53,751 nt of DNA from Promethearchaeota archaeon (GCA_016840165.1 JAEOSU010000081.1:1-53751), one strand, 5' to 3'; shown: positions 2,043 to 6,327, counted from the first letter of the stretch. The notes: a model not told the origin generated them from the letters alone. Made by a program: numbers and translations.

Positions 2043-2495
2043 TTATTCCGGAGTTTTTCGTTTATTGAATAATTGCTTCAATTCACTCATGATTGCCCCT
2101 CTTAAACTAACGGGACTGGCAGGGCGTGCAGCACCAGGTCCTCCAGGCGGTCCTCCAGGCGGTGGGGGTGGCCCTCCAGGTGGCCCACCAGGTGGTCCTC
2201 CGGGAGGTCCGGAAGAAGGTGGTGGGGCGCTAGCGGGTGTTTTAGGTGTCGCAACTATAGGTGTTGATAAACTACCCCCTTTACTTATAGTATTTAATTC
2301 ATTATTAATTGTATTAATTCTAGTCTCTATTGTTGAAATCTTTTGATTTATAACGTTTAATGATTGTTCAACCAAATCTGGAATTTTTAAAATCATAAAC
2401 ATCATTTTTTCAACAATATCTCCAAATGAATTAAGTTTCTCATCAAGAGGCTCTTTTCTTGTCTCTTGCATAAAATTAGCGAATTCTTCTGCCAT
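2043..2495 (-). CDS. coiled-coil + polyproline + C-terminal amphipathic basic helix protein (putative actin regulator, VASP/WASP-like architecture)
   Basis: Heptad coiled coil VEQSLNVINQKISTIETRINTINNELNTI, then (GPPG)n and GPPPPP, then C-terminal LRGAIMSELKQLFNKRK. The CDS is secure; the function is inferred. Confidence 0.6.
   Translation of the reverse strand: MAEEFANFMQETRKEPLDEKLNSFGDIVEKMMFMILKIPDLVEQSLNVINQKISTIETRINTINNELNTISKGGSLSTPIVATPKTPASAPPPSSGPPGGPPGGPPGGPPPPPGGPPGGPGAARPASPVSLRGAIMSELKQLFNKRKTPE
2133..2230 (-). repeat. imperfect 12-nt GC-rich coding repeats encoding GPPG units
   Basis: cctccaggcggt / cctccaggtggc / ccaccaggtggt / cctccgggaggt units on the + strand, with synonymous variation between copies. 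Confidence 0.8.
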
Positions 2496-4414: not shown

Positions 4415-5488
4415 TTAAATTTTATATCTTAGTATTGCGACCAACGAGCCTAAATCGATAATTTGTTGTCCAGTGAGTTGCTCACTGCTAAGAATATTAA
4501 TTTTAGCATTTGATTTCTCAGCAAGGTTGAGTAAATTCTCAATTTGCATTTTTTTGTCTGTACTGACGCCTCTTATTAAGGTATCAGCGCAAAATAATTC
4601 ATTAATTGCACCTGATTCTGCCGCTTTTGTTACTTCGTTAAAACCAATAGCAATTAAATCAGGATCAATACTAAAAAGCCTAAAAATTTCTTCAATTTTA
4701 GCCATTTCTTGAATTATTTTTACCTTATTTTTCAATTTTATTAATTTATCAGATTTTAAAGTTTCAATTATGGCGCTTTCTGTGCCGGAACTAGCATGAA
4801 TATTTTCGATAGGAGGGAGTTTAATATCGCCTAGCTTATTTTGAATATCTTTTAATAGGTAATTACGAACGTTTCCTGGCCCACAAATAACAATCAAATC
4901 TATTTTTCTTGATTTAACATTCTCTTCAATAATTTTTATGATATTAGAAAAAAATTCCTCGTAGGCTTTATTACGGTAACGTGTTTCATATCTCTTTCCA
5001 GGAATCGTTTTTTTAATAGTTGCTATTCTTGTATTACTATAATTAGATACAAGAAAAATTGTTGCTAAACCAGTCTCAATCGCAATCATAAATATGAGAA
5101 AATTCTTTTCAAAAATTGACAACTCTTTAATCCTTTTTATCTCTGTATTTAACCACTTTTCCTTTTTGATCGATAAAATAGTCCCTATCTCTATATTTAA
5201 CGTATGATAACTCCCGAAGCTGACATAATCTTCAGGTCCTTCCAGTATTGTTCCTTTAATTCTTAATCGATTTGAAAACTCATGAAATGATAGGGATTCA
5301 ACATTTATTGTTAATCGCATAGGCTTTCTCTCTCCTTTGCTCCCTTCTCTCAATACAACTCTTCGGTGAGTCTGTGATGTGACTTTATCTTCTTTTCCAA
5401 TAACATTATAGAGAGCCCATAAATCATTTAAATTTTCAGTCTTTAGGACCATATCTTGTTTCTTTTTATCAAATTCAATGATTTTCAT
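4415..5488 (-). CDS. pelA: mRNA surveillance protein pelota (aDom34)
   Basis: ENLNDLWALYNVI, FHEFSNRLRIKG, GSYHTLNI, IPGKRY, GPG, and C-terminal LGSLVAILRY. Confidence 0.95.
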   Translation of the reverse strand: MKIIEFDKKKQDMVLKTENLNDLWALYNVIGKEDKVTSQTHRRVVLREGSKGERKPMRLTINVESLSFHEFSNRLRIKGTILEGPEDYVSFGSYHTLNIEIGTILSIKKEKWLNTEIKRIKELSIFEKNFLIFMIAIETGLATIFLVSNYSNTRIATIKKTIPGKRYETRYRNKAYEEFFSNIIKIIEENVKSRKIDLIVICGPGNVRNYLLKDIQNKLGDIKLPPIENIHASSGTESAIIETLKSDKLIKLKNKVKIIQEMAKIEEIFRLFSIDPDLIAIGFNEVTKAAESGAINELFCADTLIRGVSTDKKMQIENLLNLAEKSNAKINILSSEQLTGQQIIDLGSLVAILRYKI

Positions 5489-5625
5489 AAGGCTAACACA
5501 AATTTAATTTATACAACTTTATAATAGTAAAAATCTACAAAATTGATTAATTTTTTGCTAATTAGGACTTATTTTGCTTCAATTAAAGAAATAAAAAAAA
5601 TATAAAAATAAAAATCACTTATACT

Positions 5626-5778
5626 TCATTGCTCTCCTAAAGCTTCCTTGATTTTGTTTAACTCCTCCATTCGTTTCTTTTTTTCCTCTTCACGCTTTTT
5701 CATTTCTGCTTCATCTACTTTCTGGAGAGTGACACCTTTTCTAATTTCATTCTGTAATTCCTTATCGATAGGAGCCAT
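5626..5778 (-). CDS. 50-aa WH2-motif microprotein (not in the ORF track)
   Basis: ATG at 5778 to TGA at 5626 translates to MAPIDKELQNEIRKGVTLQKVDEAEMKKREEEKKKRMEELNKIKEALGEQ. AAAAGGT lies about 11 nt upstream, T-tracts lie downstream, and the ORF fills an otherwise empty gap of about 400 nt. Confidence 0.8.
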   Translation of the reverse strand: MAPIDKELQNEIRKGVTLQKVDEAEMKKREEEKKKRMEELNKIKEALGEQ

Positions 5779-5883
5779 TATTCTTCAATACCTTTTTAAG
5801 TATTATTTTTAAAAAATACGATAATATTTTTTCAGAGATATTATAATAGAATTCATTTATAAGTTTTAGTTTATGGAAAAAGG

Positions 5884-6327
5884 TTAGATTTTTAATTCCA
5901 TTAAGTAAGCGCTTTCATTATGTCTATAATAATCCTCTATTCTCTCTATTATTTCAAATCCAAATTTTTTATACAATTTTATCGCTTTTAAATTGGTTGT
6001 TTTCACATTTAATATTATTTTATTAATTTCTGTATGGTTGTTTACGATATTTAGTGTTTTTTGCATTAATAGGGAACCATAACCTTTATTTTGATATTTC
6101 TTTCTGATAATAAAGTTAATAAGATTGAATCTATGGTCATCATCCTTAATTAAGATTACATAACCGATTATATCTTCTGCTTTTTTAGAAACTACTATCT
6201 TTAAAAACAAGCTATTAGAATTAATTAAATTTTGTAATAACTTTCTCGAAAAGGAATCTGATTTAAAAATCCTTTTTTCAATTTTATAAATTTTGTTTAG
6301 ATCGCTTAGTGTCACTTTTTTAATCAA
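5884..6327 (-). CDS. rimI: GNAT N-acetyltransferase (RimI/Ard1-like)
   Basis: YQNKGYGSLL acetyl-CoA motif, NLKAIKLYKKFGF, and IEDYY...AYLM. Confidence 0.85.
   Translation of the reverse strand: MIKKVTLSDLNKIYKIEKRIFKSDSFSRKLLQNLINSNSLFLKIVVSKKAEDIIGYVILIKDDDHRFNLINFIIRKKYQNKGYGSLLMQKTLNIVNNHTEINKIILNVKTTNLKAIKLYKKFGFEIIERIEDYYRHNESAYLMELKI

What the first reader, a model, noticed from the sequence alone, without database searches (positions are those of the whole stretch)
5626..5778. Unannotated 50-aa stand-alone WH2 (actin monomer-binding) microprotein
Seen: the ORF MAPIDKELQNEIRKGVTLQKVDEAEMKKREEEKKKRMEELNKIKEALGEQ is too short for the ORF track and has an AAAAGGT motif upstream and T-tracts downstream. 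Established: WH2 domains are an amphipathic helix (L..xIR.G) followed by LKKV/LRKV. As I recall it, WAVE1 reads LLEAIRKGIQLRKVEEQ, which lines up with ELQNEIRKGVTLQKVDEA. The following E/K helix ending in RMEELNKIKEAL sits where the WAVE C helix or the thymosin-beta tail would be. Asgard archaea encode actin, profilin and gelsolin. Inference: this is an archaeal WH2/thymosin-like actin-sequestering or delivery peptide that gene callers would easily miss.
Basis: partly seen in the sequence, partly recalled or inferred. Interest (0 to 1): 0.95.

Follow-up and report, generated by a model that had tools for sequence, protein, structure and literature searches.

The report
WH2-like microprotein of Lokiarchaeia
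A real, strongly conserved 50-residue protein from one order of Loki-type Asgard archaea has a first half that matches the eukaryotic WH2 actin-monomer-binding motif, and the same module is naturally fused to Asgard profilin, so it is a good but still unproven candidate for an undescribed archaeal actin regulator.

Summary
The ORF exists as described, on the minus strand at 5626-5778 between pelota and a RimI-like acetyltransferase. It is a genuine gene. pN/pS is 0.14 in its frame, the lowest of six frames. It has a conserved promoter-like block, an SD-like site and a T-rich 3' end. It was found in 24 of 24 sampled genomes of the genus and in most genomes of one Lokiarchaeial order, but in none of about 225 other genomes of the phylum.

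The bare motif in one sequence is at chance level. The family profile is not. Its best matches among solved structures are the WH2 domains of N-WASP, Spire and MIM. In a search of 1.84 billion proteins, its only non-family hits were three Pfam-certified polyPro-WH2-C-A proteins and one unrelated repeat protein.

Pfam's own WH2 model never reaches its cut-off on any family member. The same about 45-residue module occurs in arrays of 9-10 copies and fused to an Asgard profilin domain, LRR, a Ras-like GTPase or RHH.

Public gene callers already call the ORF "hypothetical protein". This scan has reached the same reading on other genomes. My best reading is a WH2/thymosin-like Lokiactin-monomer binder, probability about 0.5.

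The parts
5626..5778 (-). 50-codon protein-coding gene (includes the stop codon)
   Evidence: ORF list and translation. pN/pS 0.14 with pS 0.69 across 20 orthologs, the lowest ratio of six frames. 24/24 genus genomes have it. More than 120 database relatives of 49-55 aa.
5713..5766 (-). WH2-like half (residues 5-22): amphipathic helix 6-14 with L8 and I12, then G15, then L18-Q-K20-V21
   Evidence: AF2 model has H6-14 followed by a non-helical stretch 15-22. I12, G15, L18, K20 are invariant; K14 and V16 are at least 90% conserved. This is the only stretch aligned to the N-WASP, MIM and Spire WH2 chains and to Pfam-certified WH2 proteins.
5638..5712 (-). Long C-terminal helix (residues 23-47), E/K/R-rich. 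Invariant R29 E30 E31 K33 R36 E39 K42 K44 A46. R36 is near-invariant across all module copies.
   Evidence: AF2 H23-47 with pLDDT 90-95. Invariant columns in A1. L18 and R36 are the only columns conserved at 90% or more in the broad module alignment A4. No specific match in solved structures, only generic coiled coils.
5838..5872 (-). Conserved A/T-rich promoter-like block (AAACTAAAACTTATAAAT... and TATTATAATAT) in the rimI-to-ORF spacer, 60-95 nt upstream of the ATG
   Evidence: Alignment of seven genus orthologous spacers shows a run of invariant columns here, while the rest of the spacer varies. Reading it as BRE/TATA is inference from general knowledge of archaeal promoters.
5790..5796 (-). 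Shine-Dalgarno-like AAAAGGT, 11 nt before the ATG
   Evidence: Sequence. GG[TA]G-type purine motifs sit at the same place in orthologs.
5581..5614 (-). T-rich tracts after the stop codon (terminator-like)
   Evidence: Sequence. Function is inferred from general knowledge of archaeal oligo-T termination.
4415..5488 (-). Neighbour: pelota (aDom34). Context only, not part of the feature.
   Evidence: Pfam eRF1_1/2/3. The order rSAM-rimI-small-pelota-rSAM is kept in the genus, in other genera of the family and in one genus of a second family.
5884..6327 (-). Neighbour: GNAT / RimI-like acetyltransferase. Context only.
   Evidence: Pfam Acetyltransf_1, E 1.8e-16.

Best explanation
The gene encodes a stand-alone copy of a Lokiarchaeial 'WH2-plus-helix' module that binds monomeric Lokiactin.

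Proposed mechanism (inferred, not shown):
- G15 ends the helix.
- The extended L18-x-K20-V21 segment runs along the actin surface, as in eukaryotic WH2 and beta-thymosin.
- The highly conserved long helix (23-47) presents one face, basic then hydrophobic (R29, K33, R36, M37, L40, I43/K44, L47). This face either makes a second contact on actin, as the beta-thymosin C-helix does, or recruits another partner.

As a free 50-mer it would sequester or buffer actin monomers. The same module in 9-10 tandem copies, and fused to profilin, LRR, Ras-like GTPase or RHH domains, would build larger actin regulators in related genomes.

Shown here: the gene is real and under strong purifying selection; the motif residues are invariant; there is profile-level similarity to WH2; natural fusions to Asgard profilin exist.

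Inferred: actin binding, the binding site, and sequestration.
For: (1) Real gene. pN/pS is 0.14 in frame. It is more conserved (66-92% identity) than the flanking pelota (60-80%) and rimI (43-67%) across the genus. It has its own conserved upstream block and SD-like site.

(2) WH2 layout. AF2 gives helix 6-14, a non-helical stretch 15-22 and helix 23-47. I12, G15, L18 and K20 are invariant.

(3) Profile against all PDB sequences.
- With 28 orthologs, 3 of the top 4 hits are WH2 chains from actin complexes: N-WASP 3m3n_W E 8e-6, MIM 2d1k_C 0.042, N-WASP 2vcp_D 0.092.
- With a broader module profile, 6 of the top 10 are WH2 chains: N-WASP 3m3n_W 1.6e-5, 2vcp_D 0.0047, 6uhc_H; Spire 3mn7_S 0.0039, 3ue5_B, 3mn5_S.

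(4) Exhaustive HMMER search of 1.84e9 proteins. Only 81 hits at E<=1e-3. The non-family hits are three proline-rich WH2-C-acidic proteins (E 1.5e-5, 5.4e-5, 2.5e-4), matched only on profile positions 2-28, plus one unrelated secreted repeat protein, P0313 (E 5.6e-5). Pfam certifies the three as WH2 at 35-64 bits.

(5) Pfam WH2 is the top or near-top sub-threshold family for divergent members: G029 ortholog 13 bits; tandem-array proteins 16.8, 13.3, 12.3 and 11.3 bits.

(6) Fusions. One, two or four modules follow a domain that matches solved Asgard profilins: 5zza_P E 2e-9, 5yed 2.6e-7, 5zzb 7e-6, 7pbh 7e-5.

(7) Tandem arrays of 9-10 modules are predicted as helices joined by low-confidence loops at the G..LKKVD motif, with pTM 0.18. 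That is beads on a string, not a compact repeat fold.

(8) A language-model feature search puts a Thymosin (PF01290) cluster as the first named neighbour, score 0.87. This is a lead only.

(9) The groove is a proven docking site in archaea and in Lokiactin's relatives. Loki gelsolin and profilin bind it on rabbit actin (PMC9433394), and arcadin-2 binds it on crenactin (PMC5173319).
Against: - Pfam PF02205 gives no hit on this protein, either at E<=10 or in a six-frame search of the genome. It never reaches its 23.1-bit cut-off on any family member.
- PF01290 never hits.
- Single WH2-domain scores are weak: 7-23 bits, with per-domain E above 1. The significant E-values come from summing 2-4 repeats in one target.
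- The bare motif occurs at chance frequency in this genome.
- The most conserved part of the module, including the near-invariant R36, lies in the second helix. The WH2 definition does not include that helix.
- In LRR, GTPase and some RHH fusions the N-helix is altered or carries a 3-residue insertion before the Gly.
- Fusion to RHH DNA-binding-type domains is not what an actin binder would lead one to expect.
- Gene neighbourhoods show no actin link: pelota/rimI, or MoxR-AAA/VWA in other families.
- The family is confined to one order, so convergence cannot be excluded.
Confidence: 0.5

Rival explanations
1. The module is a lineage-specific helix-loop-helix adaptor that binds some other partner, not actin. 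The likeness to WH2 is a coincidence of a short, compositionally easy motif in a K/E/I/L-rich proteome.
For: - The second helix, which is not part of WH2, is the best-conserved part, and R36 is near-invariant.
- Pfam WH2 and Thymosin models stay below threshold.
- The bare motif is at chance level in the genome.
- The module is fused to very different domains: RHH, Ras-like GTPase, LRR, hexapeptide transferase, Zn ribbon.
- Neighbourhoods show no cytoskeletal genes.
- One non-WH2 repeat protein (P0313) and aEF-1beta (1gh8_A) also score with the profile.
Against: - Two independent databases searched with the family profile return WH2 domains as the leading non-family hits.
- Profilin-module fusions recur with 1, 2 and 4 module copies.
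- The residues that are invariant in the N-half are exactly the WH2 contact residues.
Confidence: 0.3
2. It is a translation- or ribosome-rescue-associated small protein, working with its conserved neighbours pelota and the RimI-like acetyltransferase.
For: - The order rimI-small-pelota-rSAM is kept across the genus, across other genera of the family and in one genus of a second family.
- There is a weak profile match to archaeal EF-1beta, 1gh8_A, E 0.1-0.5.
Against: - The gene has its own conserved promoter-like block and terminator-like tract.
- In other families the homolog sits next to MoxR-AAA/VWA genes with no pelota nearby.
- None of the fusion partners is a translation factor.
- Pelota and RimI-type genes are near-universal in archaea (general knowledge), whereas this gene was found in only one order of the phylum.
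Confidence: 0.07
3. It is a purely structural, self-associating coiled coil or single-alpha-helix spacer with no specific ligand. The tandem arrays would then be long flexible rods.
For: - E/K/R-rich helix of 25 residues.
- Generic coiled coils (SYNZIP5, flagellin) match the C-terminal half.
- The array model is all-helical with no tertiary packing.
Against: - Invariance of specific charged residues and of I12/G15/L18/K20 over 65-98% identity is far more than a spacer needs.
- The loops at the motif are conserved in register in every repeat: E-[IL], L, then R 18 residues later.
Confidence: 0.08

Closest known systems
WH2 (WASP-homology 2) domain, Pfam PF02205 (N-WASP, WAVE, MIM, Spire, WIP, Cordon-bleu)
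   Same: - A short N-terminal amphipathic helix, a Gly, then an L-x-K-V/T segment, with the same spacing: hydrophobic at -4, I, +3 G, +3 L, +2 K, V.
- It occurs singly, in tandem arrays and appended to many other domains.
- The family profile retrieves WH2 chains and Pfam-certified WH2 proteins.
   Different: - The Pfam model does not reach its cut-off on any member.
- The module always carries a second, more conserved helix of about 25 residues with a near-invariant Arg 18 residues after the motif Leu. WH2 lacks this.
- The host is an archaeon of one order.
- Actin binding is untested.
Beta-thymosin / thymosin beta-4, ciboulot, actobindin (Pfam PF01290)
   Same: - A stand-alone peptide of about 45-50 residues with an N-helix, an LKKT-type motif and a C-terminal helix.
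- Repeat versions exist in eukaryotes (general knowledge).
- The nearest named cluster in the ESM Atlas feature search is a Thymosin cluster, score 0.87.
   Different: - No PF01290 hit at E<=10 on any member tested.
- phmmer of the MK-D1 homolog finds no thymosin chain among solved structures.
- The C-helix starts directly after the motif and is much longer and more highly charged.
WH2-like LKKT-type linker motif inside Asgard two-domain gelsolins (PMC9433394; bioRxiv 10.1101/2025.11.30.690169)
   Same: An Asgard protein segment described as WH2-like that contacts actin. It shows that the Lokiactin and rabbit actin surface accepts such motifs.
   Different: That is a four-residue motif (LVDV/LKDV/LRRV) between two gelsolin domains, without the WH2 amphipathic helix. 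Here there is no gelsolin domain, and the full helix-Gly-LxKV layout is present.
Arcadin-2 C-terminal peptide of Crenarchaea (PMC5173319)
   Same: An archaeal short helical peptide that binds the hydrophobic groove of an archaeal actin and sequesters monomers. It is the only archaeal precedent for this mechanism.
   Different: By the authors' account it has no sequence likeness to WH2 or thymosin and binds in the reversed orientation. It belongs to a different lineage, and the peptide is part of a larger protein.
Tandem-WH2 actin nucleators and LRR-WH2 proteins (Spire, Cordon-bleu, bacterial VopL/VopF/TARP; leiomodin) - from general knowledge
   Same: The relatives with 9-10 tandem modules, and the LRR+module proteins, mirror these architectures.
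   Different: - The window's protein is a single module.
- The repeat spacing is fixed at about 45-48 residues by the extra helix.
- No nucleation activity has been shown.

Membership tests
WH2 domain (Pfam PF02205) | Scores at or above the curated gathering cut-off (23.1 bits) of the Pfam WH2 model | tested here: not met
   - No hit at E<=10 on the window protein.
- The six-frame search of the whole genome does not report this ORF.
- Best scores on relatives are 13 bits (G029 ortholog) and 16.8, 13.3, 12.3 and 11.3 bits (tandem arrays).
WH2 domain (Pfam PF02205) | N-terminal amphipathic helix of about three turns, followed by an extended LKKV/LKKT-type motif | tested here: met
   AF2 gives helix 6-14, then a non-helical stretch 15-22 containing L18-Q-K20-V21. 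L/M8, I12, G15, L18 and K20 are invariant or conserved. Orthologs in another family have a canonical LKKV. The structure is predicted only.
WH2 domain (Pfam PF02205) | Detectable sequence relationship to bona fide WH2 domains | tested here: inconclusive
   - Family profiles rank N-WASP, Spire and MIM WH2 chains first among PDB sequences.
- They find three Pfam-certified WH2 proteins at library-wide E 1.5e-5 to 2.5e-4.
- Single-domain scores are only 7-23 bits, and significance comes from summed repeats.
- Homology cannot be separated from convergence.
WH2 domain (Pfam PF02205) | Binds G-actin in the groove between subdomains 1 and 3 | not testable with these tools
   The complex prediction with the genome's own Lokiactin was not folded, because the actin chain was judged eukaryote-like. 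No biochemical data exist in the searched literature.
Beta-thymosin (Pfam PF01290) | Match to the Pfam Thymosin model | tested here: not met
   No PF01290 hit at E<=10 for the window protein or for five orthologs.
Beta-thymosin (Pfam PF01290) | Stand-alone peptide of about 45 residues with an N-helix, a central LKKT-type motif and a C-terminal helix | tested here: inconclusive
   The outline is the same in the AF2 model, and a Thymosin cluster is the first named ESM-feature neighbour at 0.87, below the tool's 0.9 bar. The C-helix differs in length, position and composition.
Asgard gelsolin WH2-like linker | The motif lies between two gelsolin-homology domains | tested here: not met
   There is no gelsolin domain in the protein or among the fusion partners seen.
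Asgard profilin (for the fused relatives only) | Sequence match to solved Asgard profilins | tested here: met
   The N-domain of L032 hits 5zza_P at E 2.1e-9, 5yed_A 2.6e-7, 5zzb_A 7e-6 and 7pbh_A 7.2e-5. Pfam Profilin is the top family but below its cut-off, at 16.6-21.6 bits.

The most novel reading that the evidence does not exclude
One order of Lokiarchaeia, which includes the cultured Promethearchaeum syntrophicum, has built a whole actin-regulatory toolkit from a single WH2-type module:
- a free 50-mer that buffers Lokiactin monomers;
- proteins with 9-10 modules that nucleate or sequester;
- profilin-(module)1-4 fusions that hand monomers to filament ends;
- LRR and GTPase fusions that place the module under signalling control;
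- RHH-module proteins, and a profilin-TrmB protein encoded next to an actin gene, that couple the monomer pool to transcription, as the eukaryotic RPEL/MRTF system does.

The module would then be either a relic shared with the eukaryotic stem or a striking case of convergence on the same actin groove.
Probability: 0.25. Interest if true: 0.9.

Novelty: new variant of a known kind. Interest (0 to 1): 0.72.

Why it matters
WH2 and beta-thymosin modules are regarded as eukaryotic inventions, copied by a few bacterial pathogens. The known Asgard actin regulators are profilins and gelsolins. Current reviews and the 2025 Lokiactin pull-down study list only these.

A stand-alone WH2-like peptide, its tandem arrays and its profilin fusions would add a third class of regulator in the archaea closest to eukaryotes. 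A homolog, DSAG12_00453, is present in a cultured strain. The question is therefore directly testable with a synthetic 50-mer.

The family's restriction to one order limits what it can say about eukaryogenesis. Convergence, gene transfer and loss elsewhere all remain open.

Tried and rejected
- Complex prediction of the small protein (alignment A1) with the genome's own Lokiactin (alignment A2) was not folded, because the actin chain was judged eukaryote-like. There is no verdict either way, and I did not attempt it by another route.
- Foldseek of the 50-residue model against PDB gave no match.
- The search for homologous proteins in 'longer' mode was unproductive, with 2 hits. Fusions were found instead through whole-genome searches and the exhaustive HMMER search.
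- An exact look-up of the two tandem-array proteins did not find them in the collection.
- Supplementary Table 2 of the L. ossiferum Lokiactin Co-IP preprint is held, but it uses private locus tags (GNAMCCOK_) that I could not map to the array protein.
- phmmer of the MK-D1 homolog against PDB gave no thymosin hit, although its EIEEHDKSKMAKV stretch recalls thymosin beta-4 from memory.
- I looked for gelsolin, actin or profilin genes next to family members in seven further loci and found none.
- The antisense ORF 5648-5812 (+) was rejected as a gene, because substitution patterns fit the minus-strand frame.
- 'Not a gene' was rejected for the same reason.

Full report
**Observation**

The ORF is real and sits at window 5626-5778 on the minus strand. 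Downstream is pelota (4415-5488, eRF1 domains 1-3). Upstream is a GNAT/RimI-like acetyltransferase (5884-6327). Radical-SAM genes flank both. AAAAGGT lies 11 nt before the ATG, and T-tracts follow the stop.

**Is it a gene?** Yes.
- Homologs of 49-55 residues with no internal stops were found in 24 of 24 sampled genomes of the genus.
- More than 120 clusters at 90% identity exist in the 5.8-billion-protein collection.
- Across 20 genus orthologs the ORF frame has pS 0.69 and pN 0.096, a ratio of 0.14. That is the lowest of six frames.
- The product is 66-92% identical across the genus. That is more conserved than pelota (60-80%) or rimI (43-67%) in the same loci.
- The rimI-to-ORF spacer holds a block of invariant A/T-rich columns (ACTTATAAAT..., TATTATAATAT) and a purine-rich SD-like site. 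I read this as the gene's own promoter and leader; that reading is inference.
- The gene is not unannotated. Public callers list it as 'hypothetical protein', sometimes with a spurious 'efflux pump' name. The homolog in cultured Promethearchaeum syntrophicum MK-D1 is DSAG12_00453.

**Is the motif more than chance?**

In one sequence it is not. A WH2-type regular expression hits 4 ORFs of this genome, against 3-9 in shuffled ORFs. The signal lies in conservation and in profiles.
- In 28 diverse orthologs I12, G15, L18 and K20 are invariant. K14 and V16 are at least 90% conserved, and position 8 is always L or M.
- AlphaFold2 on that alignment gives helix 6-14, a non-helical stretch 15-22 and helix 23-47, with mean pLDDT 84.8. 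This is the WH2 layout followed by an extra long helix.

**Similarity to WH2**
- The curated Pfam model PF02205 does not hit this protein and does not report the ORF in a six-frame scan of the genome.
- On relatives it is repeatedly the top or near-top family, but always below the 23.1-bit cut-off. It scores 13 bits on an ortholog that carries a canonical LKKV. It scores 16.8, 13.3, 12.3 and 11.3 bits on four of nine tandem-array proteins.
- In the other direction the signal is clearer. A profile of the 28 orthologs searched against all PDB sequences ranks an N-WASP WH2 construct first (E 8e-6). The MIM WH2 peptide is third (0.042) and N-WASP fourth (0.092).
- A broader profile of 37 module copies (small proteins, single repeats, fusions) gives WH2 chains of N-WASP and Spire as 6 of the 10 best hits.
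- An exhaustive HMMER search of 1.84 billion representatives with that profile finds only 81 proteins at E<=1e-3. Apart from family members these are three proline-rich proteins and one unrelated secreted repeat protein.
- The three proline-rich proteins have two to four WH2 motifs, a connector helix and an acidic, Trp-containing tail. Their E-values are 1.5e-5, 5.4e-5 and 2.5e-4. Pfam certifies all three as WH2 at 35-64 bits.
- Caveat: the best single-domain scores are 23.0 and 20.9 bits, and the significant values come from summing repeats.
- A language-model feature search names a Thymosin (PF01290) cluster as the first annotated neighbour at 0.87.
- PF01290 itself never hits.

**The module in other proteins**

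Whole-genome searches and the exhaustive search show the same unit of about 45 residues in several architectures.
- Arrays of 9-10 copies occur in proteins of about 480-500 residues in a sister family, including MK-D1 and a 6.0-Mb single-contig genome.
- One, two or four modules follow an N-terminal domain that matches the solved Asgard profilins: 5zza_P E 2e-9, 5yed 2.6e-7, 5zzb 7e-6, 7pbh 7e-5.
- The module also follows LRR arrays, Ras-like GTPases and RHH domains. Occasionally it accompanies a hexapeptide transferase or a zinc ribbon.
- Every repeat keeps E-[IL], then L seven to ten residues on, then R exactly 18 residues after that L.
- The array protein is predicted as helices of about 36 residues joined by low-confidence loops of about 9 residues at the G..LKKVD motif. 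With pTM 0.18 it shows no compact fold. The alignment had only seven rows, so this is weak evidence.
- The profilin fusions are the main functional link to actin.

**What argues against the actin reading**
- The second helix is the most conserved part: R29, E30, E31, K33, R36, E39, K42, K44 and A46 are invariant. It has no place in the WH2 definition.
- In several LRR, GTPase and RHH fusions the N-helix is altered or has a three-residue insertion.
- RHH partners are unexpected for an actin binder.
- Gene neighbourhoods give no cytoskeletal hint. rimI-small-pelota is kept across the family and in one genus of a second family. Elsewhere the neighbours are MoxR-AAA and VWA genes.

**Distribution**

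With the ortholog profile at E<=1e-3, the gene was found in 63 of 68 genomes of its family and 6 of 7 of a sister family. It was found in none of about 225 genomes from 28 other families of the phylum. In a smaller sample, all five genomes from two further families of the same order had matches at E 1.6e-8 to 2.5e-5. The family therefore belongs to one order of Lokiarchaeia as far as these searches see. It cannot be placed in the ancestor of eukaryotes.

**Literature**

The searched library holds no report of a stand-alone WH2-like protein in archaea. What is in print:
- a four-residue 'WH2-like' linker inside Asgard two-domain gelsolins (PMC9433394; bioRxiv 10.1101/2025.11.30.690169);
- arcadin-2, a crenarchaeal peptide that occupies the actin groove (PMC5173319);
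- the 2025 Lokiactin pull-down study, which names only gelsolins, profilins, an Arf GTPase and BAR proteins.

**Earlier notes of this scan**

The same family has been found and followed up on several other genomes, with the same reading (real gene, WH2-like, profilin fusions, tandem arrays). A later check cut the spread to one order and called the likeness 'on its own letters' weak. My own tests agree on both points.

**What could not be done**

The complex prediction with Lokiactin was not folded. Binding and expression therefore remain untested here.

**Verdict**

The most likely reading (about 0.5) is a WH2/thymosin-like Lokiactin-monomer-binding module with an added conserved helix. It is best filed as a new variant of a known kind, not as a member of Pfam WH2. 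The main rival (about 0.3) is a lineage-specific adaptor for another partner.

Noticed in passing
window 2043-2495 (-): A 150-residue protein with an N-terminal coiled coil, a Pro/Gly tract (GPPG repeats with a run of five Pro) and a C-terminal basic amphipathic helix (RGAIMSELKQLFNKRK). It was found in 39 of 41 sampled genomes of the order. In the genus it always lies 3.1-3.6 kb from the small ORF; in other families it is 78-110 kb away. Pfam gives only weak hits (CCDC53/WASH subunit, E 0.09). The scan lists it as a separate finding.
   Followed up: partly
Pfam gives only weak, mixed hits: Syntaxin_2 0.013, Talin_R4 0.12, GMIP FCH 0.21. A homolog follows the radical-SAM gene in other genera too.
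   Followed up: partly
L029:2663-3865 (+) = G000 contig C54, directly after an actin paralog (L029:1426-2616): A 400-residue protein with an N-terminal Asgard-profilin domain (5zza_P E 6.6e-8, 7pbh_A 7e-7) and a TrmB-type winged-helix DNA-binding domain (E 1.6e-12), encoded 47 nt after an actin gene. This could be an actin-sensing transcription regulator.
   Followed up: partly
G000 contigs C77, C54, C15, C4 (L028-L031): The genome has four actin-family genes above the Pfam Actin cut-off, two of them Lokiactin-like at 442 and 428 bits.
   Followed up: no
L035, L036, L037; P0309, P0306, P0297, P0315: There is a recurrent composite architecture: Ras-like GTPase or LRR, then module, then RHH (NikA/DUF6290-like), then a second module-like helix. 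RHH-module proteins of about 120-140 residues also stand alone (L025, L038, L040, P0322). The role of the RHH (dimeriser or DNA binder) is unexplained.
   Followed up: partly
L032:1498-2253 (-), P0251, P0267, P0276: Profilin-module proteins end in a conserved domain of about 50 residues (IIIKTEFKTDYIYDDFQLLKVKHEIE...) with no Pfam match. Its function is unknown.
   Followed up: no
L061:3243-3410 (+) = P. syntrophicum MK-D1 DSAG12_00453: The MK-D1 homolog reads EIEEHDKSKMAKV where others have EIKKGVxLxKV. From memory this resembles thymosin beta-4 (EIEKFDKSKLKKT), but neither Pfam nor phmmer against PDB confirms it.
   Followed up: partly
P0313 (from the representative library): A 259-residue secreted-looking protein with four near-identical 56-residue repeats scores E 5.6e-5 with the module profile. 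It has no WH2 hit in Pfam and is probably a false positive driven by repeats. It serves as a caution on summed-repeat E-values.
   Followed up: partly
window 5648-5812 (+): A 54-codon antisense ORF overlaps the gene. Substitution patterns fit the minus-strand frame, so it is most likely spurious.
   Followed up: yes
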